NCBI GenBank assembly: GCA_038063415.1
Contig: JBBTVD010000006.1
Location: forward strand, 221,882-285,881
DNA: 64,000 nt
Origin: Patescibacteria group bacterium
GTDB taxonomy: Bacteria; Patescibacteriota; Microgenomatia; Levybacterales; UBA12049
Reading direction: 5' to 3'
Shown: positions 2,317-43,810 of the stretch, one piece after another
Numbering within the stretch: the first letter of the stretch is position 1
How the letters are laid out: every line of letters begins with the position of its first letter
Position numbers and translations under genes: made by a program
Notes under the pieces: model-generated
What the model saw: the letters and a program-made list of their open reading frames with translations, nothing else
The model's database searches: none
Told to the model about the DNA's origin: nothing

Positions 2317-3594
2317 TTAGCTAATACTATGTTCGGGGTATACAGCGCGGAATTCTCGAATTGCTGTTACTTTTACTTCTCCAGGGACGGCAAGAGAACG
2401 ACTTACTTCTTCTTGAATCTTTCGTGCAAGGACTACTGTCTGATTATCATCAAGGCTCCCAGGTTTGATAATCACACGAAGTTCTCTCCCTGCTTCAAAG
2501 GCATACGCATCGTCAACTCCCTCATAATTCTTGGCGATTTTCTCCATCTCTTGCAGCCGAACACCATATTTTTCAAGATCCTCATACCTGGCGCCAGGAC
2601 GTGCTGCAGAAATCGCATCAGCGATGTGGACAATAATTGACTCAACAGAAGAAAACGGCTTATCTTCATGATGTTCTCCAACTGCATTAATGATAGGATC
2701 TGGGAAATTGTATCGCTTCAGGAGATCAACACCGAGCTTAACATGACTGCCATCTCCTTCTAGAATCTTTCCAATATCATGGAAAAGGCAACCCAAGCGA
2801 ACAACATCCACATTGGCACCAATTTCTTGTGCAATATGAATACCTATCTTTGTTTCTTCAAGGGTGTGTACCAGCAAATTCTGACCATAAGAGGTGCGGA
2901 ATTTCATCCGTCCAAGTAGCGGATAGAGGTCTGCTGGGAGATTGTAGACACTGACTTCGGCCGCTAGCTTTTCTCCCTCTTCGGCCATGATTTTCTCCAT
3001 TTCTTTTTTGGTTTGCGCAACAACTTCTTCAATACGGAATGGTTGGATGCGGCTGTCTTTCAGGAGAACCTCAAGTGCACGTCTTGCAATTTCACGTCGA
3101 ACCTGATCAAAAGAAGAGAGACGGATAATTCCCTCTTCATCAAGGTCAACATCAACGCCAGTTGCTTGTTCAAATGCTCGAATATTGCGACCTTCTCTTC
3201 CAATGATCCGACCCTTTACTTCTTCATCTGCGACCTTAATTACTGAGACGGTATATTCTGGAATAAACTTAAGGGCACCGTGTTTGATACTATCAAGAAT
3301 AATTTCTTGTGCACGTTTGTCAGCGGTACTTTTGGCGGTTTCTTCTTGCTGTTTGATAATCTTGGCAAGCATCGCAGCGGCATCTTTTTCTGCCTCTTCA
3401 AGAAGTATTTTACGAGCTTCGTCAACGGTAAGACTTGATACATTTTCTAATTTTGCAGTATATTCTCGACGTTTTTTATCAAGCTGCTCTTTTTCTTTTT
3501 CTATTTCCTCTTGTTTTGCCTCGAGCTTTTCCTGGCGTTCAAGAAGCTTTTTTTCAAGGATAATTAAATCTTGTGATGATGTTTGGTTTGACAT
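2317..3594 (-). CDS. rny: Ribonuclease Y (KH + HD domains), with no N-terminal transmembrane anchor
   Basis: N-terminal coiled-coil region, a KH domain (GREGRNIRAFEQATGVDVDLDEEGIIRLSSFD) and an HD domain (GVDLLKRYNFPDPIINAVGEHHED...). 425 aa. Confidence 0.9.
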   Translation of the reverse strand: MSNQTSSQDLIILEKKLLERQEKLEAKQEEIEKEKEQLDKKRREYTAKLENVSSLTVDEARKILLEEAEKDAAAMLAKIIKQQEETAKSTADKRAQEIILDSIKHGALKFIPEYTVSVIKVADEEVKGRIIGREGRNIRAFEQATGVDVDLDEEGIIRLSSFDQVRREIARRALEVLLKDSRIQPFRIEEVVAQTKKEMEKIMAEEGEKLAAEVSVYNLPADLYPLLGRMKFRTSYGQNLLVHTLEETKIGIHIAQEIGANVDVVRLGCLFHDIGKILEGDGSHVKLGVDLLKRYNFPDPIINAVGEHHEDKPFSSVESIIVHIADAISAARPGARYEDLEKYGVRLQEMEKIAKNYEGVDDAYAFEAGRELRVIIKPGSLDDNQTVVLARKIQEEVSRSLAVPGEVKVTAIREFRAVYPEHSIS

Positions 3595-4379: not shown

Positions 4380-6575
4380 TTATTGTTCTTGATTCTGAGA
4401 TGCAAGGAATTCTTCAGCATTTCTGACCAGTACTTCTCGTGGCTTTGCCCCATCCGCAGGACTGACAATCCCCATTTCTTCCAATTGATCAAGCATTCGA
4501 GCAGCTCTTGCGTAACCAACAGACATTTTGCGCTGGAGGAATGAAGCAGAAGCTGTATTAAATTGGCAAACGAGACGAATTGCTTCCTCGAGTTGCCCAT
4601 CTTTGCCATCTGCTCCAGTAGATGATGAACCTGCCCCTGCACCTTTTTTCAACGGAAGTGGTTGGTTTATCACTTCCTCCGTGTACTCCACAGGATAACT
4701 CCTCGACTTTAAGAAGTCAACCAGCTTATGCACTTCTTTCTCTGAGACAAAACTACCTTGGATACGGGTCGGTTTGGCTTGGTCTGGAGGAATATAGAGC
4801 ATATCTCCCCGACCGAGTAATTTCTCAGCTCCAGCAGAATCAATAATAACCCTGGAATCAATCATTGAAGATACGTTAAAGGCAATACGACAAGGGATGT
4901 TTGCCTTAATAAGCCCAGTAATAACATTAACGGATGGACGCTGGGTTGCGATTACCAAATGAATACCCGTTGCACGAGCCATTTGTGCAAGTCGGGCAAT
5001 CGCGTCTTCAACCTCAACTGGAGCAAACATCATGAGGTCTGCCAACTCATCAATAAAGATAACAATATAAGGCAATGCCTGAAAGCCAGATAATTCGTTG
5101 TATGAATCAATATTGCGGACTCCTCGTTCGGCAAAAATCTTGTAACGTTTGTCCATCTCATGCATCGCCCACTTGAGTGCTGACAATATCTTATCAGGCT
5201 CAACAATAACTGGTGTAAGGAGATGTGGAATACCATTATACGCTGAGAATTCGACACGCTTTGGATCAATAAGAATGAGGCGCACTTCCTGCGGAGATGC
5301 ACGGAAAAGTAAGGTGGCAATAAAGGAATTAATCAGCACTGATTTACCAGAACCTGTCGTACCAGCAACGAGAGAATGGGGTGTTTTTGCAATATCAATT
5401 GCCACGGGTGAGCCTGAAACATCCAGTCCCAAGGAGACAGTGAGTTTTGATTTGGCTTTTTGCATAACGGGAGAAGCAAGCATCGTACGGAGAGAAACCA
5501 GCTCAAGTGATCGGTTAGGAATTTCGATACCAATAAGATTACGTCCAGGGATAGGAGCTTCAATTCTGATTTGTCCGGTAGGAGCTTCGGTCGCGAGTGC
5601 CAAATCATTGGCAAGTGAGGTGATCTTTGAGACTTTGGTACCAAGAGCAATCTCAAGTGCATACTGAGTAACCGCTGGACCCAGATTTACTTCAGCAACT
5701 CGTGCTTCAATACCAAAACTCTGAAGCGTTTTCTCGATAATATTTGCTATCTTTTTGATGTCCCCCCGCTCTGCTTTTTTATTCATTGAATCTTCAAGTA
5801 TGGATAACGAAGGGTATTCCCACACACCTGTTCCTGAAGTTCCAGCGAGCATATTGGTAACGAGCTTCTCGGGAAGAAGCTCTGTCCCTTTCTTTTCTTT
5901 TTCTTCAGACTGTGACTGTTGCTGGACTGCCTTTGCGGGAGTAATAGCTTTTCTATCATCTTCCTTCTGTCCTCCCTTGATCTGAATTGGTTTATTTCGA
6001 TTAAATGCTGGCTTCTCACGTTTGAAAGAAGCAAAAAGTTGCCTCGGGATAAGTTTGTTGAGCGCTTTTCCAATAGCCATGAGGCCATGGAGTACTTCAT
6101 CAAGTGAGGTATCAAAAAGGACAATCAGGCCAACAGCAAGCCCTCCCAAAAGAATGATATCTGCTCCTGCAGTGGTCAGTATTTCTTCAAGGACTCCAAA
6201 CATTCTATCGCCAACGCTTCCCGATCGGGTGATACCAACGAGTGAAATGAAAAAAAGGAGATATCCCATACTTACGTTGAGACGAGAGAGGTACATTTTC
6301 ATATGGAGAAAGAGAAAACCAAAGAGGATAAAAATAAATGGGAAAAAGATCGTCACTCCACCAAATCGCTCGACAAGCAGACTATTTAGGTTTACTGATG
6401 AAGGACCTTGATTAACAAACGAAAGCAGACACAAGATACCGGCAATAAAAAAAGCTATCCCAAAAAGAGAATAGATAGTTTTTTTCTTGAGTTTGAGTTT
6501 AAATGGCTTTTTGCGACCACCACCACGACGAGCAGGCATAAAATCTATTATATACCTTTCGCCCCTAGACCTCAA
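4380..6575 (-). CDS. ftsK: DNA translocase FtsK/SpoIIIE
   Basis: N-terminal TM helices, Walker A GTTGSGKSV, the FtsK motor domain and a C-terminal gamma domain (ASFLQRKMSVGYARAARMLDQLEEMGIV). Confidence 0.9.
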   Translation of the reverse strand: MRSRGERYIIDFMPARRGGGRKKPFKLKLKKKTIYSLFGIAFFIAGILCLLSFVNQGPSSVNLNSLLVERFGGVTIFFPFIFILFGFLFLHMKMYLSRLNVSMGYLLFFISLVGITRSGSVGDRMFGVLEEILTTAGADIILLGGLAVGLIVLFDTSLDEVLHGLMAIGKALNKLIPRQLFASFKREKPAFNRNKPIQIKGGQKEDDRKAITPAKAVQQQSQSEEKEKKGTELLPEKLVTNMLAGTSGTGVWEYPSLSILEDSMNKKAERGDIKKIANIIEKTLQSFGIEARVAEVNLGPAVTQYALEIALGTKVSKITSLANDLALATEAPTGQIRIEAPIPGRNLIGIEIPNRSLELVSLRTMLASPVMQKAKSKLTVSLGLDVSGSPVAIDIAKTPHSLVAGTTGSGKSVLINSFIATLLFRASPQEVRLILIDPKRVEFSAYNGIPHLLTPVIVEPDKILSALKWAMHEMDKRYKIFAERGVRNIDSYNELSGFQALPYIVIFIDELADLMMFAPVEVEDAIARLAQMARATGIHLVIATQRPSVNVITGLIKANIPCRIAFNVSSMIDSRVIIDSAGAEKLLGRGDMLYIPPDQAKPTRIQGSFVSEKEVHKLVDFLKSRSYPVEYTEEVINQPLPLKKGAGAGSSSTGADGKDGQLEEAIRLVCQFNTASASFLQRKMSVGYARAARMLDQLEEMGIVSPADGAKPREVLVRNAEEFLASQNQEQ

Positions 6576-8274
6576 TCACTACAGGGAGCAGCAGTGGACG
6601 AGTGCGGAATTTCCTAGCGAGGTGTTTTCCGGCAGTTTCGGCAATAAGTCGTCTGATATGCGTCCAGTTGGTAACTTGTTCTTTCTTTCGTGACAATACC
6701 TGTTCTAATTCTTGTACAAGCGCACCAGAGAATCCTTGGACGTCGCCAAGCGATGAACCACGTAGAATGATTTCAGGCTTTGCCGCGAGTTGCCCGTCTT
6801 CAGTCTTAATCTCAGCAAGGATAACCACAATCCCCTCTCGGGAGAGACGCTCACGGTCTCGAACGACGAAGTGCTCTACTGCTTCCCCCGAAACTTCATC
6901 AACGTAAATATTGCGTACCGTTACTCGCTTCCCAGGGCGCATAGAGGTTGGTGTAAAGATCATTTCTTGCCCGTTTTCGACAAGCGCAATCTCGTTTGGC
7001 TTGTAGCCCATTTGTCCTGAGAACTCACGATAGGCAACCATATCCCGGTACGTACCACTAATAGGAAGTAAAAATTTGGGCTGGGCAAGCGCAATAAGTA
7101 ACATATGATCACCTGAGGATCCGTGTCCTGATACATGGAACGTACCGGTCAACTCTGAACGAGCAATACGTGCGCCTCGCTTGACTAAGGTGTCCAGAAG
7201 CGTATTTACCGCGATTTCGTTACCAGGGATAACATCTGAAGAGAACACTACGACATCCCCCTTTTCTAGTTTTATCTCCCGATGTTCACCATTTGCAATA
7301 CGGCTGAGCGCTGAGTTTTCTTGTCCCTGACTACCAGCAACAAGGAGGACAATCTTATTGCCAGGATAATTTTTCACGGCATCAATCGAGATTTCCGTAT
7401 CACTTTTTATATGCAGATAGCCTAATTGTTGCCCAATTTCTTTGACTTTGATCACTGATCTTCCAACAAAACAGACTTTTCTTCCCATTTTTTCGGCAGC
7501 CTCAACCACTTGGTTTACCCGCGAGATGTTTGAGGAGTAAGTTGTGAGGATAAATTTACCAGGACAATCACGCATTTCGTCAGCAAAGTTTTTGCCAAGC
7601 GTTTGTTCAGAAGGAGTATGCCCACTTTTATGTGCCCCAAGACAATCAGACATGAGCGCAAGCACTCCGGCTTGGGAAGCTTCAAGGATTTTATGGAACT
7701 CAGTTCGTTTGCCATCAGCGGGTGTGAGATCAAATTTATAATCACTCCCATGAAAAAAATTCCCGACTGGCGTCTTGATAAAAATGTTTGCACTATCAGG
7801 GACTGAGTGAGTTACTCTGATAAAAGAAATCGTAAAATCACCAAGCCGAATCTCTTTATCACCAAAGTTAACAATATTTATGGCCCTGGGTAGCTGGAAT
7901 TCAGCAAGTTTTTCATTGGCTAGCGCAGTTGTTAAGGGCGAGGCATAGAGAGGAAAAGGAATCTTTTTATCAGCAGTCAGCAGCTGTGGAAGGATAAATG
8001 GCAATCCTCCGATATGATCTTCATGACCATGTGTAAAGAGCATACCGACAATTTTCTTCCCTGCTTTGAGACGTTCTTGTAGTGGTGAGATATCAGGAAG
8101 CAACAGATCAACCCCAAGCATCGTTTCATCAGGGAACCCAAGACCACAATCAACAATCAAGATCTGATTGTTGTACTCATAGAGATACATATTACGGGTT
8201 ACTTCTTCTTCTCCACCGAGGGAGAGAAAAGAAACGGAGCCTTGAGGAAAATTTACTTGTTTCACTTCATTCAT
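6565..8274 (-). CDS. rnj: Ribonuclease J (metallo-beta-lactamase / beta-CASP / RMMBL)
   Basis: Motif LFTHGHEDHIGGLPF with the beta-CASP and C-terminal domains; 569 aa. Overlaps ftsK by 11 nt. Confidence 0.9.
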   Translation of the reverse strand: MNEVKQVNFPQGSVSFLSLGGEEEVTRNMYLYEYNNQILIVDCGLGFPDETMLGVDLLLPDISPLQERLKAGKKIVGMLFTHGHEDHIGGLPFILPQLLTADKKIPFPLYASPLTTALANEKLAEFQLPRAINIVNFGDKEIRLGDFTISFIRVTHSVPDSANIFIKTPVGNFFHGSDYKFDLTPADGKRTEFHKILEASQAGVLALMSDCLGAHKSGHTPSEQTLGKNFADEMRDCPGKFILTTYSSNISRVNQVVEAAEKMGRKVCFVGRSVIKVKEIGQQLGYLHIKSDTEISIDAVKNYPGNKIVLLVAGSQGQENSALSRIANGEHREIKLEKGDVVVFSSDVIPGNEIAVNTLLDTLVKRGARIARSELTGTFHVSGHGSSGDHMLLIALAQPKFLLPISGTYRDMVAYREFSGQMGYKPNEIALVENGQEMIFTPTSMRPGKRVTVRNIYVDEVSGEAVEHFVVRDRERLSREGIVVILAEIKTEDGQLAAKPEIILRGSSLGDVQGFSGALVQELEQVLSRKKEQVTNWTHIRRLIAETAGKHLARKFRTRPLLLPVVIEV

Positions 8275-8323
8275 GTAGTACAGCTAGTATACTCGTTTGC
8301 TTTCTTTTTTTCAATTTATCACT

Positions 8324-9670
8324 TTACCACTGTGGCATAAATTCTTTGAGATTTGCGTCAGTAATTTTGACTGTCTCTGCTTGCCCTGAGATAATAACAG
8401 TTGCGGCCTTTCTGCACATAGCGGTAATAATTCTGTCGAGACCTCGAACTCCAGGATCGTATCCAAGCGGTCTGATTAGTGGCTCCCAGACACTATCATC
8501 AATAATAAGTTGGTTGGGAAGTAGCCCTGTTTGCTGCATCGTCTTTGGAAGTACATGATCCTTGCCAATGACGGTCTTCTCGGTATCATTATAGGAAGGC
8601 ATGTGGACAATCTCAAGACGATCGAGTACCGCAGTTGCAACACTATTGACGTTGTTGGCCGTCGCGATAAAGATTACATCTTGCAAGTTAAATGGATAAT
8701 CAATGTAATGATCAGTAAATCGTGCATTCTGCTCAGGATCAAGAATTTCAATCAGCACACCCATAATGTCTGCACGAGCTGAATCAGTCACACGATCAAG
8801 CTCATCAAGCAGAATTACCGGATTTTTGGTCTTGGCATTCGCAAGACGCTTGATTATCTGTCCGGGCTCAGCATCAGGAAAATAGCGAGATTGTCCTCGA
8901 AGCACCCGAGAATCTGCCATGCCTCCAAAAGGAATACGTTCAAACTTCCGGCCTAAAGCATCAGCAAGAGACTTGGCAAAGGTCGTCTTACCGGTACCGG
9001 CAAGGCCAAGCAAACAAAGAATTGGCGCTTTAATGACATTTTCTTTACCACCATAGTTCTTGATATTCAACATAATAGACGCAATATACTCAAGCACTCT
9101 TTGCTTGAGGGGCTCAAGACCATAATGGTTTTTATCCATGAGCTGTTTGGCTTTTGCGAGATCCAATTGATCTTTACTTTTACTCTCCCAAGGAAGTGCA
9201 ACAACCCAATCAACAAACTTCTCCGTTGACTCGTATTCCATAATGTAGGTAGAACTCAAAAAGCCAGAACTGGAACGAATCATAGCGAGTCGTGAGATAC
9301 GTTCAAGGAGTTCTTCTTTGAAGTCGGCCGGAATCTTTGCCTGTTCAATTTGTTCACCGAGTCTTCTAATTTGATCTGATGATTTTCCATGGTCGGAAAC
9401 TCCGACGGTTCCTGTGGCTGTTGCTCCAATACTTACTCCACTCACTTCTTGGGCTGTTGTATCGTTATTAACCATTTGTGCGCTGGCAACGTTTTGCATT
9501 TTTTGCATAGCTTCACTTTCTTGCATCGCTGTCGCGGTGAGGCTATTATCAATGACTTGAGGAATATCTCCTCGTTGCATAGCAGCTTTATCTTCAGCGC
9601 TAGGTGCAGGAGGTTGTTGTGGAGATGGTATAGCCGATTGATCGGCTGGTTTCTGGGCAGATGGATCCAT
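8324..9670 (-). CDS. Lon-family AAA+ ATPase module with no S16 protease domain and no LON N-terminal domain; the N-terminus is a Q/P/A/T-rich low-complexity region.
   Basis: It aligns by eye to E. coli Lon residues ~260-600. Shared features are LPWESKS, HYGLEPLKQRVLEYIA, Walker A GLAGTGKTT, Walker B ILLDELDR, LDPEQNARFTDHY, sensor ATAN and the arginine region DPGVRGLDR. The protein ends where the protease domain would begin. The first ~200 aa are low complexity. Confidence 0.75.
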   Translation of the reverse strand: MDPSAQKPADQSAIPSPQQPPAPSAEDKAAMQRGDIPQVIDNSLTATAMQESEAMQKMQNVASAQMVNNDTTAQEVSGVSIGATATGTVGVSDHGKSSDQIRRLGEQIEQAKIPADFKEELLERISRLAMIRSSSGFLSSTYIMEYESTEKFVDWVVALPWESKSKDQLDLAKAKQLMDKNHYGLEPLKQRVLEYIASIMLNIKNYGGKENVIKAPILCLLGLAGTGKTTFAKSLADALGRKFERIPFGGMADSRVLRGQSRYFPDAEPGQIIKRLANAKTKNPVILLDELDRVTDSARADIMGVLIEILDPEQNARFTDHYIDYPFNLQDVIFIATANNVNSVATAVLDRLEIVHMPSYNDTEKTVIGKDHVLPKTMQQTGLLPNQLIIDDSVWEPLIRPLGYDPGVRGLDRIITAMCRKAATVIISGQAETVKITDANLKEFMPQW

Positions 9671-9838
9671 ATCTCTATATTACACCACGCGTTCTTCTTC
9701 ACGCAAGGATTTAAGTTTCTATTGCAGCTTGGCAAGTACCATTTATGGCATATATCCCCCCACGTCATGTTAGATAAGTTAAATCTTTTTAATGTAGTTT
9801 ACAGGCGGAAATTTCTTCTTTTGTAAAACCAAGAGTAA

Positions 9839-14955: not shown

Positions 14956-14982
14956 TTAGCACTAATATAACATGACTGCCAA
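14956..14982. promoter_or_regulatory. CIRCE-like inverted repeat (HrcA operator), TTAGCACTA-N9-GACTGCCAA, immediately upstream of hrcA
   Basis: 15 of 18 positions match the CIRCE consensus TTAGCACTC-N9-GAGTGCTAA. It lies directly in front of hrcA, which is the canonical position. Confidence 0.55.
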
Positions 14983-26115: not shown

Positions 26116-28407
26116 TTATCTAGTTACTAAGCCAAATTCGAGAACTTCTCCACCACAATAGGTGGTAATAAGATCACAAGATTCTTGCAAAGATTTACGT
26201 ACCTGCTCTGGCGTTATCTCATCAATGCCATCTACATTAAGATAGATATTTTTTGTTTGCTCTGTTACCGCTGTTCTCTGGGAATCTCGGAAATTGAAAT
26301 CAATATTGTATCCTCCTTGCTGATCAAAATAGGAAAGTTCTGTTTCCTTGTACTTTGTAGATTCAGTATCGCCAAGTAATAAAATCTCCTCCCCAGCTTT
26401 TGCAAAGCGAAGTTCAGTCGGGAACTGCAGAGTATCTAGATCAAATGCGCCAATCGAGATACGATGCCTCATTACAACTAGATTATATGCATCTACACAA
26501 GTATTGATTGTATATAAATCTTTTCCTTGAGCAACCCGTCGAAGTAACGCTTCAGGGCTGGGTCTGCGTGAATGCCAATCAATCCCCATTGCTTTATAGA
26601 GTTTTCGATAACTTAAGACTTCAAGATATTCTCCAATTTTTTCTGTCGTTAGTCCTTTTAAAGAATCCAACAATTTTTCCTTCTCTTTTTCAAGTTCTGG
26701 GTTTGTTTTACTAATAGTAACTCCCTTAATGACGGCAATACCAATGGAGATTGAAGGATGTTTTTCTTTGACGTTTTTATCTATTGAAAAAATGTTTGAG
26801 GAAATACCAGTCATTCTGGCAAGCGGAGCGCGTCCAGAATCTTTATTTTCGATTCTGGAGTCCTCGCTTTCGCTCGTCCCCAGAATGACGTCATTAAACC
26901 TCTTTTGTACAAAATCTTTCTCAAGAGAGAGGATAAACCAAGCAGCTTTTGGTCCATGGTCTTTGCCAATGAGGGACTGGTAGATTGCTGAAAAAGTTTG
27001 TTTACCATTGAGTCCCAAGGGCTTCCCTAATTCATAAATCTGTGTCTGTAAATCATCAGCATTCCACTCTTTATCTAACTCTGCAACTATTTTTTGTAAA
27101 AGTTCTTTTTGTTCAGCAGAGAGATGTTTTGCTCCCTCTGGCGTATCTTTCTGAACCAAGAATTTTGCAGAATCTGGCGCATACTTTTCTATCCACACTC
27201 TCGCATATTTCGCCCATTCCTCAAGTCCTTCCTCTTTAATTTTGTCTTGCATGTTCGGCATCTGCACCCACTGTGCAAGTACAGAGAAACGAATACTTGG
27301 CGGTTTGACTATATCACCAATTTGTGAGAGTTCAAAAGTACGAGCAAGATCTTCATCCGTTTTATCAAAATATGCTGCTGCTGCTTTTTGATACGCATCA
27401 AATAAATTTGGAATAGTATCTTTCTCCGTTGGATCAAAGTTTGTTTGCTGTTTTATATCCATTTTTACAATCAAAAAACGAACTAACTCTGCCGGTAAAA
27501 TAGAAAGCATATCTCCAGCTGAAAAACCTCTTCCTTTTGAAGAAGACATTTTTTTCCCACCAATCAACATAAATTCATAACTAACAGGATATGGCACAGG
27601 ATAATCAAGCACTTTCTTAGCAATAAGCGAGGTGAGGTCATGCGACCCACCCTTACTCATATGATCCTTTCCAGCACCCTCTACGGTCACACCAATCGCT
27701 TGCCATTTGCAAGCCCATTCTATTTTCCACGGCATTTTTCCTTTAATACCGTTTTCATCACTAAATGGAGAAGTTTTTCCTTCATGTCCACACCCTTTTG
27801 TCCATTCAGTGGCATCAACTGGGCAACGGTAGTGAACAAATTCTCCATCCCAGTCATAGACGCGAGTTGTTGAAACCTTGCCACAGGATTCACAGTAAAC
27901 CTGGAAAGGATACCAGTCAGCAGGCATTTCTTTTTTATACATTTGTTGATAAATACTTCGTATTTCGGAAGCGTTATCCAATGCTTTTTTAACCCCAGTA
28001 TTCATTTTGCCACTCGTATATAAGTCTTTCGTCCAGATGATTTCAGGATATGATCCGATTTGGTTAAAAGCTTTTTTGAATTCTAATGCATAATACTCAG
28101 CATAATCTTTGTAACCCTCAAGAGGTGAAGGAACTCTAAAAAGTGGCATACCAAGATACTTCTCAAATTTCTCTCGAGGGAGATAAGAAGGTATATCATC
28201 CATTGGGTCATGGTTTTCAAATACATAGGTATACTTTGCCGCTACACCTTGATCTTTTAATGCTCGGTAAACCAAATCATGGAAAACCACCCCAAAAAGT
28301 GAACCTACATGAATACGACCCGATGGTGTCTTCATATCGTCAACCCAATAAGGTGTATATTTACCTGAATCAATAATTTCTTTTGCTACTTTATCTGCCC
28401 AGAACAT
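26116..28407 (-). CDS. lysK: Class I lysyl-tRNA synthetase fused to a ~250-aa C-terminal extension carrying a B3/4 (PheT-type) domain
   Basis: The N-terminal 510 aa align to archaeal-type LysRS-I (MFWADKVAKEII..., TPSGRIHVGS, EGAGKDH, KMSSSKG, AWFILSLEKDFVQKRF). The C-terminal part contains NTCVDAYNLVVMRHRISIGAFDLDTLQ, matching the B3/4 core (vDitNyv...g.P.HaFDld). Confidence 0.8.
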   Translation of the reverse strand: MFWADKVAKEIIDSGKYTPYWVDDMKTPSGRIHVGSLFGVVFHDLVYRALKDQGVAAKYTYVFENHDPMDDIPSYLPREKFEKYLGMPLFRVPSPLEGYKDYAEYYALEFKKAFNQIGSYPEIIWTKDLYTSGKMNTGVKKALDNASEIRSIYQQMYKKEMPADWYPFQVYCESCGKVSTTRVYDWDGEFVHYRCPVDATEWTKGCGHEGKTSPFSDENGIKGKMPWKIEWACKWQAIGVTVEGAGKDHMSKGGSHDLTSLIAKKVLDYPVPYPVSYEFMLIGGKKMSSSKGRGFSAGDMLSILPAELVRFLIVKMDIKQQTNFDPTEKDTIPNLFDAYQKAAAAYFDKTDEDLARTFELSQIGDIVKPPSIRFSVLAQWVQMPNMQDKIKEEGLEEWAKYARVWIEKYAPDSAKFLVQKDTPEGAKHLSAEQKELLQKIVAELDKEWNADDLQTQIYELGKPLGLNGKQTFSAIYQSLIGKDHGPKAAWFILSLEKDFVQKRFNDVILGTSESEDSRIENKDSGRAPLARMTGISSNIFSIDKNVKEKHPSISIGIAVIKGVTISKTNPELEKEKEKLLDSLKGLTTEKIGEYLEVLSYRKLYKAMGIDWHSRRPSPEALLRRVAQGKDLYTINTCVDAYNLVVMRHRISIGAFDLDTLQFPTELRFAKAGEEILLLGDTESTKYKETELSYFDQQGGYNIDFNFRDSQRTAVTEQTKNIYLNVDGIDEITPEQVRKSLQESCDLITTYCGGEVLEFGLVTR

Positions 28408-38988: not shown

Positions 38989-40788
38989 CTAGGACTGTAT
39001 TTCGGCTTCAGAAACCAGATTCTCAGGTAAACGGAAAATCCCTTCATCAAGCCTTTTTTGATCAAGGAAATGAGAGATAAACCCAACAGAGCGGGAAAGC
39101 ACAAAAAGAGCGTTAAAGAATTCACTTGCCACCAGTCGCTTCAGTTCACGATCAGAGACTCCTTCTTTTTCTGACAAAAGGTCCAGAAGCACCGCAGCAA
39201 TCGCGCCATCAACATTAAGGATGAGATTACCTTTTTTTGCTGTAGTAATCTTTTCAACAGAGAGTGCAAAGTGAGTAAAGCGTTTATGTGTTAACGATTT
39301 GGCAAACTGTTCGATTTCTTTGACCCGTGGATCGGGAGCGTCACTACGATACTTTTTGTGACCAATACCGGAGATGTATTGTCTTTTACTTGCAAACTCC
39401 TCGACAAAATTAGCAGGGTCTTTTTCTGAGCTAACACCTGTCAGCCAATTGGCTGCAGCTTGGTTAATTGCTCCACCAAATCGTGGCCCAATAGTAAGCA
39501 GTCCAGCAGAAAGTGAGGAAACCAGATCGCGTCCTGCTCTTGCCGTCACAATCGTATTCATCGCTCCAGAAACGTACGGCCCATGATCAGCAAGAAGCCG
39601 TAGAACAAAATCCGTAAAGTTCTCGAGTTCTTTGGAATGGATCTTCTTGCCCAAGAACATCGACATGACCAGGGTTGCAAACGACTCTTGTTTAACAATG
39701 GTCAATAAATCTTCTCCCAAGAGTTGCGGTTGTCCGTTCTTCACTCCAGAAATACTGGTGGTGATAAGCGCCCGTTGACGATTAATAAGGCTGTCGATAT
39801 CAAAGGTATAAGCTAACCCTTCAGGCACAAAGTCTTCAGGAATTGCTTGAATTTGACTCAGAAACTCAGCGTATGAATCAGCAACCTGTGCTCCTGATTG
39901 ACGAAGCATGATTCGTTTCCCGCGAGCACTTTCTTCTTGCTTTGATGCCATAGCTTTTGCATGACCAAACTGCGGGGGAGTGACAAACATTTCAGCAACG
40001 GTTCCAGCGATATAACAAATAACTTTCTTCGTTATTTTTTTTGCTTTAAGTAGATCAGCAAGTAGCGCTTCATCCGTCCCTCCGAGTTCACCAAAATACA
40101 CGATTGTCTTGGTCTGTGGGTCTTTTTCTGCTGCCAGAAAAGCCATCTCAGGCGTCGTCATCGGGAAGCGCTCACCACCAAATGACAATGAGAAAGAAAT
40201 TCGCTTGCCATAATGGGTAACCGTATTAATAATTTCATTGGTCATTCCACCAGATGAAGATAACACCGCCACTGATCCTGGAGTAAAAAGATGTGCAGTT
40301 GTTAGTTGTCGCACGTCTACCCCACCAATGGCTCCAAGCTTCATTACCGAGGGAAGAATAATACCGATACTCGCAGGCCCAGTCAGAAAGATTTTTTTCT
40401 TTTGCGCTTGCGCGTAGAGTGCAATAGCATGTTGTTCTGGGACATTTTCGGCGAAAACAATCCCACCAATCAAAGAGGGAAGAGTAGTAAGTGCTTCTTC
40501 CGTTGAGGAAAAGGTTCTTCTCCCCGATGAGAGATTAATAAAAAAGTTTGCTTCCTCTCGAATCTTTTTGGGGACATCACTGACTGATGGGAAGACAGGG
40601 ATGAGCACTTCACGCTTTCCCCAGAAGTATCGTTCGTAATTGCGTCCTGCTGCGATAATTGCTCTGATACTTGGTTCCTTTTTCCCGGATACATAATCAA
40701 AATCAAGCATTGACTGCATGATTGCAGGATAGCTACCAAGAGCAATTACTTGCACCTGTGTTTTTCGTAATGTTTGAATGTCTAACAT
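38989..40788 (-). CDS. aclA: ATP-citrate lyase alpha-type subunit (CoA-binding plus CoA-ligase domains, fused to a citrate-synthase-like C-terminal domain)
   Basis: Phospho-His region PPQFGHAKAMAS. C-terminal segments HGPYVSGAMNTIVTARAGRDLVSSLSAGLLTIGPRFGGA, IGHKKYRSDAPDPRV, LILNVDG and GFISHFLDQKRLDEGIFRLP mirror the ACLY citrate-synthase-like domain. The start is set at MLDIQ (40788), 1 nt after the aclB stop. ORF-track start is 40920. Confidence 0.85.
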   Translation of the reverse strand: MLDIQTLRKTQVQVIALGSYPAIMQSMLDFDYVSGKKEPSIRAIIAAGRNYERYFWGKREVLIPVFPSVSDVPKKIREEANFFINLSSGRRTFSSTEEALTTLPSLIGGIVFAENVPEQHAIALYAQAQKKKIFLTGPASIGIILPSVMKLGAIGGVDVRQLTTAHLFTPGSVAVLSSSGGMTNEIINTVTHYGKRISFSLSFGGERFPMTTPEMAFLAAEKDPQTKTIVYFGELGGTDEALLADLLKAKKITKKVICYIAGTVAEMFVTPPQFGHAKAMASKQEESARGKRIMLRQSGAQVADSYAEFLSQIQAIPEDFVPEGLAYTFDIDSLINRQRALITTSISGVKNGQPQLLGEDLLTIVKQESFATLVMSMFLGKKIHSKELENFTDFVLRLLADHGPYVSGAMNTIVTARAGRDLVSSLSAGLLTIGPRFGGAINQAAANWLTGVSSEKDPANFVEEFASKRQYISGIGHKKYRSDAPDPRVKEIEQFAKSLTHKRFTHFALSVEKITTAKKGNLILNVDGAIAAVLLDLLSEKEGVSDRELKRLVASEFFNALFVLSRSVGFISHFLDQKRLDEGIFRLPENLVSEAEIQS

Positions 40789-40789
40789 A

Positions 40790-42025
40790 TTAGATTGTTT
40801 TAATTGCTTTACCAATAATGTCTGGCAGGGGAGTGGTCTGGTCTCCAACAAACCCCAATAGTTTTTCTTTTTCAAGAAATGCTTCCATCTGGGCAAGTCC
40901 TTCTTCTTGATGTGGTCCACCTCGTCTGACGAATACTTGAATATGCTGCTTATGCAATGCTCCTGCTACTTCTTGTAATGCTCGTATCAGTCCACTAAAG
41001 GTAATTCGAACATCTGAAAAATTGGCAACGCCTCCAGCAATGATGAGTACTTTCTTTTTTGCTTTTGATCTCAAAAGGAGACTTACCAAATTTTTGGTAT
41101 ATAAATATACTTCTTCAGCATTGGGGTTACCACTGTATTCCCCATAGTTGGCAAGTTGTTTACCATAACCCAAATTATATCCTTCATCAGCAAGCACAAT
41201 ACTTGCCCCTCCACCGGAAAGAAGCATAAAGATGCCGCCATCCAAGTTGAGCATCTCAAGACTAAATGACGCTTGGCTTTTTTCGGACAATGCGTCTATG
41301 TTGTTTTCTTCTGTCGTTTTCTCTCTGGTCTGCGCTGCTCGGAAATCTGTTTCTGTCCAGGCATGGTGGACAAAAAAGAGTCCCGAACTATCAACTTCAG
41401 CCGCAACATCAAGCAGTGAGATGTTAGTTCCTTCCACTACCAATGGATTTATTTCAAAAAAAGAGAAATGATACTCATTAAAGGTAGAAATAAGTTTTTT
41501 TAAAAATTCTTTTGGCAAATTTAAAGCCTTTATAACTTTGTCATTCTCGCGAAGGCGGGAATCCAGCCCTGCTAAAGCACGATCCATAGATTCCGGCTCG
41601 GAGGCCGGAATGACAGGAATAAGCAGTTGATTAATTGAATTCCGATTCTCTTCAATATCGATCCCTCCCTTTACTGAAAATAACACTTCGATACCTTCAC
41701 GCGTCCGAGAAAGTGAAAGATACTTTTCTGATTCTTGTGAATGGGGGAGAAATGCTTCAATAATGACATGCGAGTATCCCTTGGCAAACAGTTTCTTTGC
41801 TTCCTTCTCTACATCAATTGACGAAACCTTCAGCGCGACAAGCCCTTGTTTCATGCGCTTTTTGACTCCTTCATCGACTTTTACGACATACGTCTGTTTC
41901 GGATCAAGTTTTTCAAGTATTTTTCTATCATCAGTTTTTGTAAAACTAATCCCCTGGTAGGGGAGACCGAGTTCTTTTGTGAGGATTCCTTTTGCACTGT
42001 ATTCACTTATTTTTTTTCGTGCCAT
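40790..42025 (-). CDS. aclB: ATP-citrate lyase beta-type subunit (ATP-grasp, SucC-like, corresponding to the ACLY N-terminal half)
   Basis: [41 protein letters not shown] and [15 protein letters not shown] correspond to the ACLY motifs [41 protein letters not shown] and IFVRRGGPNYQEGL. Confidence 0.85.
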   Translation of the reverse strand: [411 protein letters not shown]

Positions 42026-42052: not shown

Positions 42053-43810
42053 TTAATACTCTTCAAGAGTTGAGGTGTCTCCAACTTCTTGTCCGAGCTC
42101 TTTTGCTTTAAGGATTCTCCGCATAATCTTTCCCGAACGAGTCTTGGGGAGCTTGTCAATAAAAGCAATCTCTCGAGGATAGGCATGCCCTGCAAGATGT
42201 TTTTTGACATGTATCTTAAGTTTTTCTTTCAGTTCATCGTTTTGTTCAACACCTGGTTTTATGACAACAAATGCTTTGATAATCTCCCCTCTGACTGGAT
42301 CTGGCTTGCCAATAACTCCTGCTTCAACCACGTCAGGATATTCCACAAGGGCACTCTCCACTTCAAATGGTCCGACTCGCTCCCCGGCGGTATTGATCAC
42401 ATCATCAGCTCTCCCGATAAACCAGAAGTAGCCATCTTTATCTTGGTATGCCTTATCACCCGAAAGATACCATTGACCATTAAAGTAAGAATCAAACTTT
42501 GCTTTATTGTGCCAGATTGTTTTCATGAGAGAAGAAACAGTGCTTGCTTTGAGTGCCAGATGCCCTTCCTCCCCTACTGGTACTTCCTTACCCTCATCAT
42601 CGATAATAGCAGCTTTTATTCCTGGTAACGGTTTCCCCATTGAACCAGGCTTTATGTCCAGAGCAGGATAGTTGGTAATACTAATCCCCCCCAGTTCTGT
42701 CTGCCACCACGTATCATGAAATGCTAGCCCGTACGTCTCAAGACCCCACCAGATGGCTTCAGGATTGAGTGGCTCCCCCACACTGCAAAGATGTCGCAAA
42801 GAAGAAAGGTTAAACCCTTTGACATCAACCGTTGCTCCCATGAGCAGTCGAATTGCTGTGGGAGCGGTATACCAGACGGTTACTTTGTATTCTGCAAGAA
42901 GCGTATGCCAATTCTCAGGATTAAACCTTCCTTCATAAAGAACGGATGTGCTTCCAAGCCCCATGGGGCCAAGCACGCCGTACACAACCCCTGTTACCCA
43001 GCCAAGATCTGCCGTACACCAATACACGTCATCTTCATGGAGATCGAGCACATATTTGGTTGTTACCATAGCTTGCAGAACATCATAATGACTGTGGACA
43101 ACTCCTTTTGGCTTGCCTGTTGTTCCTGAAGTATAAAGCATGTACGAGTAGTCTTCTTTTTGCATATGGGCGATTGCAAAGTTGTCGCTAGCTTTTTTCA
43201 TCTCTTCTTCGTAAGAAATGATGTTCTCTCCTACCGGCTTAGTTACTGACCCCCGACCAATAATAATCACTTTCTCAAGATGAGGCAGGTCTTTCCAGAT
43301 CTTTTCGATTCGAGGATAAAGAGAAGCTGTTGTTATCACGACTTTGGCTTCACTATCGGAAAGTCGGTCGGAAAGCGCCATCTCCTGAAATGCGGAGAAA
43401 AGTACTCCCGCAATCGCTCCTACTTTGAGCGTCCCGAGGAAGGCAACTACACGCTCTGGAATCGCTGGAACAAAGAGAAAGACTCTATCGCCTTTGTGGA
43501 CATCATACGAGGTAAGTACATTGGCAAACTTGTCCGTTAGTTTCTTAAGCTTTGCATACGAATATACTTCTTTGTCACCATCTGCACTTTCAAAAAGTAT
43601 TGCAGCTTTATTTTTGTTCTTTCCTTTGGCATGTCGATCAACACAATTGTACGCGATGTTTAGTGTCCCATCAGGAAAGAACTCTATCAGCTCTTTCTCT
43701 GCTTTTTGCCACGTAAACACTTTATATGTTTTTGTGTAAGTAGTTATATTTGGCGCTACAGGAACATTCTGTATCGCTTTTTTAATGATAGTTCCTTTCT
43801 GTGTGTTCAT
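42053..43810 (-). CDS. acs: AMP-forming acetyl-CoA synthetase family (acetate-CoA ligase-like)
   Basis: AMP-binding motif YTSGTTGKPKGVVHSH, then WWQTELGG, YLSGDKAYQDKDGYFWFIGRADDVIN and the C-terminal lysine region. 585 aa. Its start abuts the xfp stop. Confidence 0.8.
   Translation of the reverse strand: MNTQKGTIIKKAIQNVPVAPNITTYTKTYKVFTWQKAEKELIEFFPDGTLNIAYNCVDRHAKGKNKNKAAILFESADGDKEVYSYAKLKKLTDKFANVLTSYDVHKGDRVFLFVPAIPERVVAFLGTLKVGAIAGVLFSAFQEMALSDRLSDSEAKVVITTASLYPRIEKIWKDLPHLEKVIIIGRGSVTKPVGENIISYEEEMKKASDNFAIAHMQKEDYSYMLYTSGTTGKPKGVVHSHYDVLQAMVTTKYVLDLHEDDVYWCTADLGWVTGVVYGVLGPMGLGSTSVLYEGRFNPENWHTLLAEYKVTVWYTAPTAIRLLMGATVDVKGFNLSSLRHLCSVGEPLNPEAIWWGLETYGLAFHDTWWQTELGGISITNYPALDIKPGSMGKPLPGIKAAIIDDEGKEVPVGEEGHLALKASTVSSLMKTIWHNKAKFDSYFNGQWYLSGDKAYQDKDGYFWFIGRADDVINTAGERVGPFEVESALVEYPDVVEAGVIGKPDPVRGEIIKAFVVIKPGVEQNDELKEKLKIHVKKHLAGHAYPREIAFIDKLPKTRSGKIMRRILKAKELGQEVGDTSTLEEY

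What the first reader, a model, noticed from the sequence alone, without database searches (positions are those of the whole stretch)
8324..9670. Lon-family AAA+ module with no protease domain and a disordered Q/P-rich N-terminus, adjacent to HicAB
The C-terminal ~250 aa are co-linear with the Lon ATPase core, including Lon-specific segments flanking the Walker motifs (LPWESKS, HYGLEPLKQRVLEYIA, LDPEQN..F.DHY, DPGVRGLDR). The ORF terminates exactly where the S16 protease domain would start. The next gene, rnj, begins 49 nt later, so there is no room for a split protease gene. The LON substrate-recognition N-domain is replaced by ~200 aa of low-complexity sequence. The protein could be a Lon-derived unfoldase/chaperone, LonC-like proteins being a known precedent, or a decaying lon. 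Its position next to a HicB/HicA toxin-antitoxin pair is notable because Lon normally degrades antitoxins.
Basis: partly seen in the sequence, partly recalled or inferred. Interest (0 to 1): 0.5.

Follow-up and report, generated by a model that had tools for sequence, protein, structure and literature searches.

The report
Protease-free Lon-type ATPase in CPR bacteria
This gene encodes the ATP-driven motor of the Lon protease without its protein-cutting domain; it is an intact, strongly conserved gene found across a large group of tiny-genome bacteria (Microgenomates), so it is a working stand-alone motor and not a broken lon gene.

Summary
The ORF at 8324-9670 (-) is real. Residues 95-445 are a LonA-type module made of a three-helix bundle, an AAA+ domain and a lid (E 1e-81 to B. 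subtilis Lon; model TM 0.90 to the E. coli Lon fragment 6N2I). It has no S16 protease domain and no LON N-domain. It is not a pseudogene. At least 151 species-level genomes of CPR Microgenomates (Levybacteria, Roizmanbacteria) carry orthologues. All 84 that I examined stop at the same position after the lid. All ATPase motifs are invariant in 81/81 sequences, and core dN is 0.087 against saturated dS. No S16 remnant was found in the window or in 1.36 Mb of related loci. The unique N-terminal extension is about 94 aa, not about 200, and part of it is predicted helical. LonC is the opposite case: it keeps the protease and has no ATPase activity. The HicA-like pair is absent from every relative, including the closest at 83% identity. 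The conserved context is rpsO-pnp-X-rnj-ftsK, or divergent groES-groEL. The gene has its own promoter of the leaderless type. The best reading is a stand-alone hexameric Lon-derived unfoldase or remodeller. Whether the genome holds a protease partner or a canonical Lon elsewhere could not be tested. This is a new variant of a known kind, of moderate interest.

The parts
8324..9670 (-). Complete CDS (448 aa plus stop) of the protease-less Lon-type AAA+ ATPase
   Evidence: ORF list. Pfam AAA and Lon_lid only. TIGR00763 positions 249-571. PDB LonA hits at E 1e-81. hhalign against a canonical LonA profile gives probability 100%, E 5e-91, for aa 99-446.
9599..9670 (-). N-terminal tip and P/Q-rich tail (aa 1-24). 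It starts with MDPSAQ, which is conserved as MD[PS]xAQ in the Levybacteria clade. 'MD' begins nearly every family member.
   Evidence: Alignments. pLDDT below 50 for aa 1-16. The extension varies in length from 5 to about 280 aa across the family.
9437..9598 (-). Clade-specific N-extension (aa 25-78). It holds a short helix, the conserved RGDIP motif (G34, D35 and P37 nearly invariant) and a long predicted helix at aa 43-78.
   Evidence: invariant columns. (helices 25-33 and 43-78, pLDDT 76-86). No homology to the LonA N region by hhalign. dN/dS about 0.26.
9392..9436 (-). Low-confidence linker (aa 79-93)
   Evidence: pLDDT below 50 for aa 78-92. Variable and gapped in the alignments.
9053..9391 (-). 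Lon three-helix bundle and pre-AAA helices (aa 94-206), equivalent to E. coli Lon residues from about 247. It carries an 8-residue family-specific insertion (GFLSSTYI).
   Evidence: alignment starts at Lon 247-253. Model helices 94-110, 115-135 and 140-158. PMC8244335 describes this bundle as the first ordered part of E. coli Lon.
8597..9052 (-). AAA+ alpha/beta subdomain (aa 207-358). It holds Walker A GLAGTGKTT (8981-9007), pore-loop-1 Y263-F264 (8879-8884), Walker B D289-E290 (8801-8806), sensor-1 N339 (8654-8656) and Arg finger R351 (8618-8620).
   Evidence: Pfam AAA aa 218-354. Motif columns are invariant in 81/81 family members, except the pore-loop aromatics.
8327..8596 (-). Lon lid (alpha) subdomain (aa 359-448) with sensor-2 R409 (8444-8446). 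The protein ends F-M-P-Q-W, three residues after the position where LonA continues into the protease domain.
   Evidence: Pfam Lon_lid aa 380-431. PDB alpha-domain hits 1X37 and 1QZM over aa 357-445. All 84 orthologues end at query aa 444-448.
9677..9706 (-). Promoter-like element of the gene itself: TTGCGT-N16-TG-TAATAT, with the -10 box ending 6 nt before the ATG. This implies a leaderless or near-leaderless mRNA.
   Evidence: Exact pattern located. A TAnnnT box lies 5-7 nt before the ATG in 42 of 51 orthologues of this context type, against 24% of other genes and 4% of pnp. The function is inferred, not shown.
8275..8323 (-). 49-nt spacer to rnj. It contains no coding remnant of an S16 domain.
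   Evidence: Sequence. tblastn is negative. The single E=0.25 hit lies in the rnj reading frame over the RNase J N-terminal motif and is a chance match.

Best explanation
The gene encodes a functional stand-alone Lon-derived AAA+ motor made of the LonA three-helix bundle, the ATPase domain and the lid. In the ancestor of CPR Microgenomates it lost both the N-terminal substrate-binding domain and the S16 protease domain, and it has been kept since as a core housekeeping gene.

The most likely mechanism is as follows. The protein assembles into a ring or spiral hexamer, with ATP bound at subunit interfaces. It uses ATP hydrolysis and the Tyr263-Phe264 pore loop to grip and thread client polypeptides, and so to unfold or remodel them. 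Because there is no proteolytic chamber, clients are released rather than degraded. In this it would resemble ClpX or HslU acting without their peptidases, or the protease-independent chaperone activity of Lon. The flexible N-terminal extension, with its conserved tip (MDPxAQ ... RGDxP), would take over partner or substrate recruitment from the missing LON domain.

Shown here: the homology, the architecture, the conservation, purifying selection, intact catalytic motifs and the gene context. Inferred: hexamer formation, threading, release without cleavage, and the role of the tail.
For: - Lon identity of aa 95-445. The structure model has pLDDT 83.7 and superposes on the E. coli Lon AAA+ fragment 6N2I with TM 0.90 and rmsd 2.5 A.
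- No Lon_C or LON domain.
- Family breadth: more than 100 clusters at 56-83% identity, and at least 151 relatives among GTDB species genomes. All informative record titles are Levybacteria, Roizmanbacteria, Microgenomates or Patescibacteria.
- Same C-terminal end in 84/84 orthologues.
- Invariant in 81/81 sequences: Walker A, Walker B (D289, E290), sensor-1 (N339), the trans-acting Arg finger (R351) and sensor-2 (R409). A conserved Arg finger only makes sense in an oligomer.
- The aromatic pore-loop-1 residue is retained in this clade as QSR[YF][FY]PDA.
- Against the relative at 83% identity, core dN is 0.087 with saturated dS.
- The gene has its own conserved promoter.
- Chaperone neighbourhoods: hrcA-grpE-dnaK-dnaJ lies upstream in the window, and groES-groEL lies divergently adjacent in about 24 Roizman-type loci.
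- In the all-against-library search the family scores 300-526 bits, while canonical LonA scores at most 262 bits. It is therefore a distinct clade and not a set of fragments.
Against: - No experiment exists, and no paper in the searchable library mentions Lon in CPR bacteria.
- From general knowledge of Lon structures (not tested here): in LonA the protease-domain ring contributes much of the hexamer stability. Self-assembly of an AAA+-only protein is therefore an assumption.
- The Roizman-type half of the family has the pore-loop QSKTSPEA with no aromatic residue. Polypeptide threading therefore cannot be the universal family mechanism.
- The most conserved gene order is rpsO-pnp-X-rnj, which points to RNA metabolism as much as to proteostasis.
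- I could not check the rest of the genome for a stand-alone S16 peptidase or a canonical Lon.
Confidence: 0.5

Rival explanations
1. Split or trans-acting protease system. The protein is the ATPase half of a two-component protease and docks onto a separately encoded peptidase somewhere else in the genome. That partner could be a stand-alone S16 domain, a second Lon, or an unrelated self-compartmentalising peptidase. Clients would then still be degraded.
For: - The C-terminal residues F-[LMI]-P-x-[WYF] are well conserved in the Levybacteria clade and are exposed right where the protease domain would attach.
- ATPase-peptidase pairs encoded apart (ClpX/ClpP, HslU/HslV) are the rule in the same AAA+ clade (general knowledge).
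- Lon proteases with 2-3 stacked Lon-type AAA+ modules exist. This shows that Lon AAA+ rings can work on top of another Lon ring.
Against: - No S16 domain lies within +/-10 kb in any of 84 loci (1.36 Mb) or in the 64-kb window and its two 10-kb extensions.
- The C-terminal motif is not conserved across the whole family. Tails end in ...FTSEV...KQFIS and ...REYL, among others.
- No known Lon works as a split enzyme (PMC9569914).
Confidence: 0.2
2. RNA-decay or nucleoprotein remodeller. The motor acts on the RNA-degradation machinery (PNPase, RNase J, RNase Y) or on nucleic-acid-protein complexes rather than on misfolded proteins. It would use the DNA/RNA-binding capacity known for the Lon AAA+/alpha domains.
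For: - The gene sits between pnp and rnj in about 35-40 of 81 loci, co-directionally. The gap to rnj has a median of 33 nt, and 16 of 35 gaps are 17 nt or less, including overlaps.
- RNase Y is 5 kb further along in the window.
- The Roizman-type pore loop (QSKTSPEA) is polar and basic rather than aromatic. This resembles nucleic-acid-translocating AAA+ proteins (general knowledge).
Against: - rpsO-pnp...rnj...ftsK is an old housekeeping gene order, also seen in Firmicutes (my recollection, not tested). The synteny may therefore be inherited rather than functional.
- The gene has its own promoter.
- In Roizman-type genomes it has left this context and sits next to groES-groEL.
- In the window and its two closest relatives the upstream neighbour has already been replaced.
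Confidence: 0.15
3. Decaying or truncated lon pseudogene, or an assembly artefact.
For: The gene lacks two of the three LonA domains, and it scores half the TIGR00763 cutoff.
Against: - The identical protein occurs on independent assemblies.
- 84/84 orthologues have the same ends and no frameshifts.
- The catalytic motifs are invariant.
- Core dN/dS is far below 0.1.
- The promoter is conserved.
- There is no S16 remnant downstream.
Confidence: 0.01
4. Functional partner of the neighbouring HicA/HicB-like pair, for example an antitoxin unfoldase.
For: The pair lies 168 nt upstream on the same strand. Lon degrades antitoxins in model bacteria (general knowledge).
Against: - The pair is found in none of the other 84 loci, not even in the relative at 83% identity.
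- HicA is sub-threshold and the 'HicB' is unassigned.
- The pair has its own 11/12 promoter-like site.
- The ATPase gene has its own promoter.
- There is no protease activity with which to degrade an antitoxin.
Confidence: 0.03

Closest known systems
LonA protease (endopeptidase La; E. coli Lon, B. subtilis LonA, human LONP1; MEROPS S16, TIGR00763)
   Same: The three-helix bundle, AAA+ alpha/beta domain and lid are co-linear with LonA at 37-42% identity. They carry Lon-type Walker A/B, sensor-1, Arg finger and sensor-2 motifs, and an aromatic residue at the pore-loop-1 position.
   Different: There is no S16 Ser-Lys protease domain and no LON/PUA-like N-domain or long coiled-coil region. The motif variants are distinctive: GLAGTGKTT instead of GPPGVGKTS, RGQSRYFPDAEPG instead of RGHRRTY(V/I)GAMPG, and an 8-residue insertion in the helical bundle. 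The family forms a separate high-scoring clade.
Engineered E. coli Lon fragment 235-584 (PDB 6N2I, 'Lon protease AAA+ domain')
   Same: The domain boundaries are almost identical to the natural protein's core (query aa 98-445). The model superposes with TM 0.90 and rmsd 2.5 A.
   Different: 6N2I is a laboratory truncation of a protease. This protein is a naturally evolved, selected stand-alone gene with an added N-terminal extension.
LonC (Meiothermus taiwanensis Lon-like protease)
   Same: It is a degenerate member of the Lon lineage in which one of the two activities has been lost.
   Different: It is the opposite loss. LonC keeps the protease and has an AAA-like domain without ATPase activity (PMC3391209, PMC13069640). 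Here the ATPase is intact and the protease is gone. It is not a precedent for this architecture.
ClpX / HslU / ClpB (other AAA+ unfoldases related to Lon that are encoded without a fused peptidase)
   Same: They are single-polypeptide AAA+ motors without an intrinsic protease. They work as hexameric unfoldases or remodellers, and ClpX and ClpB have protease-independent roles (general knowledge).
   Different: They are different families. ClpX and HslU have dedicated peptidase partners and docking loops. No such partner or docking element is known here.
Other protease-less Lon AAA+ proteins in CPR (Dojkabacteria P0165 and P0162; P0144)
   Same: They have Lon AAA+ plus a lid and no Lon_C.
   Different: They form a separate subfamily with Walker A GVQGAGKTS, no aromatic pore loop, and an S/N-rich low-complexity C-terminal tail instead of an N-terminal one.

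Membership tests
LonA protease (TIGR00763 / MEROPS S16 subfamily A) | Lon-type AAA+ module with a Lon lid domain | tested here: met
   Pfam AAA and Lon_lid. PDB LonA at E 1e-81. hhalign probability 100%. Foldseek top hits are all LonA.
LonA protease (TIGR00763 / MEROPS S16 subfamily A) | C-terminal S16 proteolytic domain with a Ser-Lys dyad (PF05362) | tested here: not met
   No Lon_C hit. The ORF ends 3 aa after the lid. tblastn with S16 domains is negative in the window and in 1.36 Mb of related loci.
LonA protease (TIGR00763 / MEROPS S16 subfamily A) | N-terminal LON substrate-binding domain (PF02190) and long helical/coiled-coil region | tested here: not met
   No PF02190 hit. The profile alignment starts at Lon residue about 253-270. 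tblastn with full-length Lons gives no N-domain match.
LonA protease (TIGR00763 / MEROPS S16 subfamily A) | Full-length score above the curated equivalog cutoff | tested here: not met
   316.7 bits against a cutoff of 608.05. For NF008053, 258 bits against 891.
LonC | Protease domain present; AAA-like domain lacking functional Walker motifs and ATPase activity | tested here: not met
   The protease is absent, and Walker A/B, sensor and Arg-finger residues are all intact and invariant. Definition taken from PMC3391209.
LonB / LonBA | Protease domain; membrane anchor inserted in the AAA+ module (LonB); no three-helix-bundle N region | tested here: not met
   There is no protease domain. The AAA+ module is co-linear with LonA without a large insertion between Walker A and B, and the LonA-type three-helix bundle is present. 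Definitions from PMC9569914.
Active AAA+ ATPases that work as oligomeric rings (the group that includes Lon, ClpX and HslU) | Walker A Lys, Walker B Asp-Glu, sensor-1 Asn, trans Arg finger, sensor-2 Arg | tested here: met
   K228, D289/E290, N339, R351 and R409 are invariant in 81/81 family members. This is sequence-level evidence only; enzymatic activity was not tested.
Polypeptide-threading AAA+ unfoldase | Aromatic-hydrophobic pore-loop-1 | tested here: met
   Y263-F264 align with the Lon T-Y position. This is conserved in the Levybacteria-type clade but absent (QSKTSPEA) in the Roizman-type clade.
Polypeptide-threading AAA+ unfoldase | Hexameric ring assembly and ATP-dependent unfolding | not testable with these tools
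   Only single-chain prediction was available. Needs SEC-MALS or cryo-EM and unfolding assays.
HicAB toxin-antitoxin (neighbouring genes) | HicA toxin domain (PF07927) at or above the gathering score, plus a HicB antitoxin partner | tested here: inconclusive
   HicA_toxin E 0.0025, 18.3 bits against a gathering score of 27, covering half the profile. The 110-aa partner has no Pfam, PADLOC or PDB match better than E 0.03-1.8. The 4-nt overlap and small sizes fit a TA pair.
Anti-phage defence Lon-like proteins (e.g. BrxL) | Match to a PADLOC defence model beyond a generic AAA match | tested here: not met
   Only weak generic AAA hits (E at least 1e-6, local matches within aa 98-355).

The most novel reading that the evidence does not exclude
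Microgenomates replaced the universal Lon protease by a protease-free Lon motor that no longer works in proteolysis at all. In this reading it is a dedicated remodeller tied to the RNA-decay gene cluster (pnp-X-rnj) or to the chaperonin locus. It would be recruited through a short conserved N-terminal peptide on a variable-length tether. In the Roizmanbacteria branch it has even given up the aromatic pore loop, implying a non-threading or nucleic-acid-directed mechanism that is new for the Lon lineage.
Probability: 0.2. Interest if true: 0.7.

Novelty: new variant of a known kind. Interest (0 to 1): 0.5.

Why it matters
Reviews of the Lon family state that every Lon has an ATPase domain followed by a protease domain. 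Here a whole CPR superphylum-level group keeps only the motor, under strong selection. This gives three things:
1. A natural test of whether a Lon AAA+ ring can assemble and work without its protease ring.
2. A handle on how organisms with genomes of about 1 Mb organise protein, and perhaps RNA, quality control.
3. A correction for automatic annotation. JGI labels these proteins 'ATP-dependent Lon protease', which would wrongly credit Microgenomates with Lon proteolysis in metabolic reconstructions.

It also removes a tempting but unsupported story linking Lon to a toxin-antitoxin pair.

Tried and rejected
- Frameshifted or split S16 domain. tblastn with the E. coli Lon P-domain and six full-length Lons against the window and 84 related loci gave nothing. 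The only hit (E 0.25, 8343-8239) is in the rnj frame over the RNase J N-terminal motif.
- Heat-shock control through CIRCE. One CIRCE-like site lies at the hrcA start (14956-14982). There is none in front of this gene or in the groES-divergent spacers at 3 mismatches or fewer.
- Canonical Lon or S16 elsewhere in the genome. I then tried to match contig lengths, seeding two protein searches with the nearest protease-bearing hits. P0167 turned out to be a fragment of an Acidobacteria LonA. P0221 is a Dependentiae Lon. Neither shares a contig with the Microgenomates genomes. This question remains unresolved.
- The N-extension as a relic of the LonA coiled-coil or N-domain. hhalign of the family profile against a LonA profile does not extend N-terminal of aa 99.
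- Defence-system membership. PADLOC gave only generic AAA hits.
- HicB identification by Pfam, PADLOC and PDB gave no significant hit.
- The first structure model, from 20 close sequences, was poor (pLDDT 62). It was replaced by a 51-sequence alignment (pLDDT 83.7).
- The afdb50 fold library was not available.
- Literature searches for protease-less Lon, or for Lon in CPR bacteria, returned nothing relevant. Melnikov 2008 on isolated Lon fragments is not held.
- Rfam and tRNA scans of the window found nothing.
Full report
**Observation**

The ORF 8324..9670 on the minus strand (448 aa, ATG start) exists as described. Pfam finds only AAA (aa 218-354) and the Lon-specific lid (aa 380-431). It finds no Lon_C and no LON_substr_bdg. 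The NCBIfam equivalog for endopeptidase La aligns aa 95-433 to model positions 249-571 of 795, at half the full-length cutoff (316.7 against 608 bits). The best matches among solved structures are all LonA: B. subtilis 3M6A at E 1.7e-81 over aa 95-445, and the E. coli fragment 6N2I at E 2.2e-75 over aa 98-445.

A profile-profile comparison of the family with 18 canonical LonA sequences aligns aa 99-446 at probability 100%, E 5e-91 and 41% identity. It does not extend further N-terminal. A 51-sequence AlphaFold model (pLDDT 83.7) superposes on 6N2I with TM 0.90 and rmsd 2.5 A.

The ORF stops three residues after the lid. rnj (RNase J beta-CASP and C-terminal domains) begins 49 nt later. tblastn with S16 domains and with full-length Lons finds only the AAA+ region in the 64-kb window.

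The core observation is therefore correct, but two numbers are off. The Lon-homologous part is about 350 aa and includes the three-helix bundle, which is the first ordered element of E. coli Lon (residues 245/247 onward, PMC8244335). The unique N-terminal extension is therefore about 94 aa. Only aa 1-16 and 78-92 are modelled with low confidence, and aa 43-78 are predicted as one long helix.

**It is a conserved family, not a decaying gene**

The window comes from a Hainich groundwater 0.2-um metagenome, and the identical protein is found on independent assemblies. The protein database holds more than 100 clusters of 420-470 aa with the same AAA+Lon_lid architecture at 56-83% identity, some on contigs of 1.0-1.6 Mb. 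A scan of GTDB species genomes found at least 151 relatives. Every informative record title names Levybacteria, Roizmanbacteria, the Microgenomates group or the Patescibacteria group. The many 'uncultured Gammaproteobacteria' titles sit on the same syntenic CPR-type loci, and I take them to be placeholder names.

All 84 orthologues I extracted end at query residues 444-448, whatever their length (346-512 aa). None of the 84 loci (1.36 Mb in total) contains an S16 or LON N-domain.

Across 81 non-redundant members the following are invariant: Walker A (GLAGTGKTT), Walker B (D289, E290), sensor-1 (N339/N340), the Arg finger (R351) and sensor-2 (R409). Against the closest relative (83% identity), the core has dN 0.087 with saturated dS. 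The N-extension has dN 0.35 and dS 1.33, giving omega of about 0.26.

In an exhaustive search of 1.84 billion representatives, protease-less single-module proteins score 300-526 bits, while ordinary LonA (770-850 aa, all three domains, e.g. P0166) starts at 262 bits. The pseudogene reading is refuted.

**Anatomy**

The protein has these parts:
- aa 1-24: a P/Q-rich tail beginning MDPSAQ.
- aa 25-78: a clade-specific helical segment with the nearly invariant G34-D35-x-P37 motif.
- aa 79-93: a linker.
- aa 94-206: the Lon three-helix bundle region, with an 8-residue insertion.
- aa 207-358: the AAA+ alpha/beta domain.
- aa 359-448: the lid.

Almost every family member starts with Met-Asp, but the extension ranges from 5 residues (Roizman-type) to 163 and about 280 residues of Q/P-rich spacer. 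In the long forms the tip motifs (MDxxAQ ... NGDxxxxNGDxP) are still retained. That is the signature of a short linear motif on a flexible tether.

Pore-loop 1 aligns RGQSRYFPDAEPG with Lon RGHRRTY(V/I)GAMPG, so F264 takes the place of the Lon pore tyrosine. Aromatic or large hydrophobic residues are kept in the Levybacteria-type clade. The Roizman-type clade has QSKTSPEA, with no aromatic residue at all.

**Context**

Two conserved arrangements exist:
- Type A, about 40 loci: typA - DHH-like gene - rpsO - pnp - X - rnj - ftsK - HTH_25 gene, all co-directional. The median gap is 61 nt from pnp and 33 nt to rnj, and 16 of 35 gaps to rnj are 17 nt or less.
- Type B, about 24 loci, Roizman-type: groEL<groES< X>, with a divergent spacer of 75-195 nt.

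The window keeps the type A downstream half (rnj, ftsK, HTH gene, then RNase Y). Upstream it has hrcA-grpE-dnaK-dnaJ followed by a small two-gene cassette.

The 66-aa protein is a sub-threshold HicA hit, and the 110-aa protein has no significant match. It has its own 11/12 promoter-like site. It is absent from all other loci, including the two closest relatives, whose upstream neighbours are again different. The adjacency is incidental.

The ATPase gene has its own promoter-like element, TTGCGT-N16-TG-TAATAT, ending 6 nt before the ATG. The same geometry occurs in 42 of 51 type A orthologues, against 24% of other genes and 4% of pnp. This suggests a leaderless transcript. No CIRCE operator precedes the gene.

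**Mechanism**

The invariant nucleotide-binding and hydrolysis residues, and especially the trans-acting Arg finger, argue for an active oligomeric ATPase. The Lon fold and the retained aromatic pore loop in this clade argue for polypeptide gripping. The absence of any proteolytic chamber means that clients would be released.

My favoured reading (confidence about 0.5) is a stand-alone Lon-derived unfoldase or remodeller whose N-terminal tether replaces the LON domain in recruitment. The steps from sequence to hexamer, threading and release are inferences.

The rivals are:
- A trans-acting peptidase partner (0.2). None lies nearby, but the rest of the genome is untested.
- A role tied to the RNA-decay cluster or to nucleic acids (0.15). 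It is supported by the pnp-X-rnj order and by the non-aromatic Roizman-type pore loop. It is weakened by the gene having its own promoter and by the gene's relocation next to groESL in other lineages.
- A pseudogene (0.01).
- A HicAB partner (0.03).

**Comparison with known families**

The protein works like, and descends from, LonA. It fails three of the four defining LonA features: the S16 domain, the LON domain and the equivalog score. It should not be filed or annotated as a Lon protease.

Its core matches the boundaries of the engineered E. coli fragment 6N2I.

A recent classification states that all Lon proteases have an A domain followed by a P domain (PMC9569914).

Related protease-less forms exist in Dojkabacteria, with a low-complexity C-terminal tail instead. 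I found no paper in the library describing a natural protease-less Lon, or Lon in CPR bacteria.

**Limits**

I could not determine whether these genomes also encode a canonical Lon or a stand-alone S16 domain. Two follow-up protein searches seeded with the nearest protease-bearing hits led to Acidobacteria and Dependentiae Lons. Oligomeric state, ATPase activity and substrates are untested.

**Verdict**

This is a new variant of a known kind, of moderate interest (0.5).

Noticed in passing
Proteins P0123-P0129 (representative library; P0123 = MFC1854773.1, Candidatus Dependentiae): These are Lon proteases carrying two or three tandem Lon-type AAA+ and lid modules in front of a single Lon_C domain (992-1675 aa). 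They outrank canonical Lon in the search because several modules match. Stacked-ring Lon proteases appear not to be part of the usual LonA/B/C scheme.
   Followed up: partly
Loci L049-L084 (Roizman-type), immediately 5' of the Lon-AAA start, e.g. L068:777-803 and L075:5539-5565: A 27-nt element, TTGTCAAG-N11-TCTGCTAA, lies right before the start codon in 28 loci, in the short divergent spacer to groES. A 41-nt variant has an extra TTATCA. The element occurs nowhere else in those loci. Its right half resembles the right arm of the CIRCE operator (GAGTGCTAA). It is sometimes coding and sometimes not, so it is conserved at the DNA level. It could be a promoter or an operator; this is unresolved.
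   Followed up: partly
Family alignment, pore-loop-1 column (window aa 263-264); loci L049-L084: The groES-adjacent clade keeps every ATPase motif but has a polar pore loop (QSKTSPEA) without any aromatic residue. The pnp/rnj-adjacent clade keeps [YFA][FYLMH]. The two context types may therefore differ in mechanism.
   Followed up: partly
window 14956-14982: A CIRCE-like inverted repeat, TTAGCACTA-N9-GACTGCCAA (3 mismatches to the consensus), lies at the start of hrcA, at the head of the hrcA-grpE-dnaK-dnaJ operon. A similar site occurs in L018.
   Followed up: partly
window 43811-46603 (-): A 930-aa phosphoketolase (XFP_N/XFP/XFP_C) is fused to a C-terminal CoA_binding_2 domain. It sits next to an AMP-binding (acyl/acetyl-CoA synthetase-like) gene at 42053-43810.
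   Followed up: no
window 26116-28407 (-): A 763-aa class-I lysyl-tRNA synthetase (tRNA-synt_1f) carries a C-terminal B3_4 domain, the domain otherwise typical of the PheRS beta subunit.
   Followed up: no
window 38989-40920 (-): A 643-aa protein combines CoA-ligase/succinyl-CoA-ligase-like domains with the C-terminal part of citrate synthase, an ATP-citrate-lyase-like or citryl-CoA-type architecture. This is unusual for a CPR genome with sparse metabolism.
   Followed up: no
window 2317-3594 (-), 6565-8274 (-); loci L005-L053: The RNA-decay genes cluster. RNase Y, RNase J and (in relatives) PNPase with rpsO all lie within about 10 kb of the Lon-AAA gene, in an order reminiscent of the Firmicutes rpsO-pnp...rnj...ftsK region.
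   Followed up: partly
Levy-type loci L003-L053 (all predicted genes): Shine-Dalgarno-like motifs precede only about 15% of naively called ATG starts. About a quarter of the genes have a TAnnnT box 5-7 nt before the ATG. This suggests that leaderless or SD-independent initiation is common in these genomes.
   Followed up: no
P0122 (669 aa) and L038 (512 aa): Some orthologues have expanded the N-terminal spacer to 160-280 residues of Q/P-rich sequence while keeping the MDxxAQ ... NGDxxxxNGDxP tip.
   Followed up: partly
Loci L052, L057, L060, L061, L075, L081-L084, directly downstream of the type B gene: An RNaseH_like (PF04308, E 4.5e-45) gene of about 160-200 aa lies convergent to the Lon-AAA gene. 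It often overlaps its 3' end by 4 nt.
   Followed up: no
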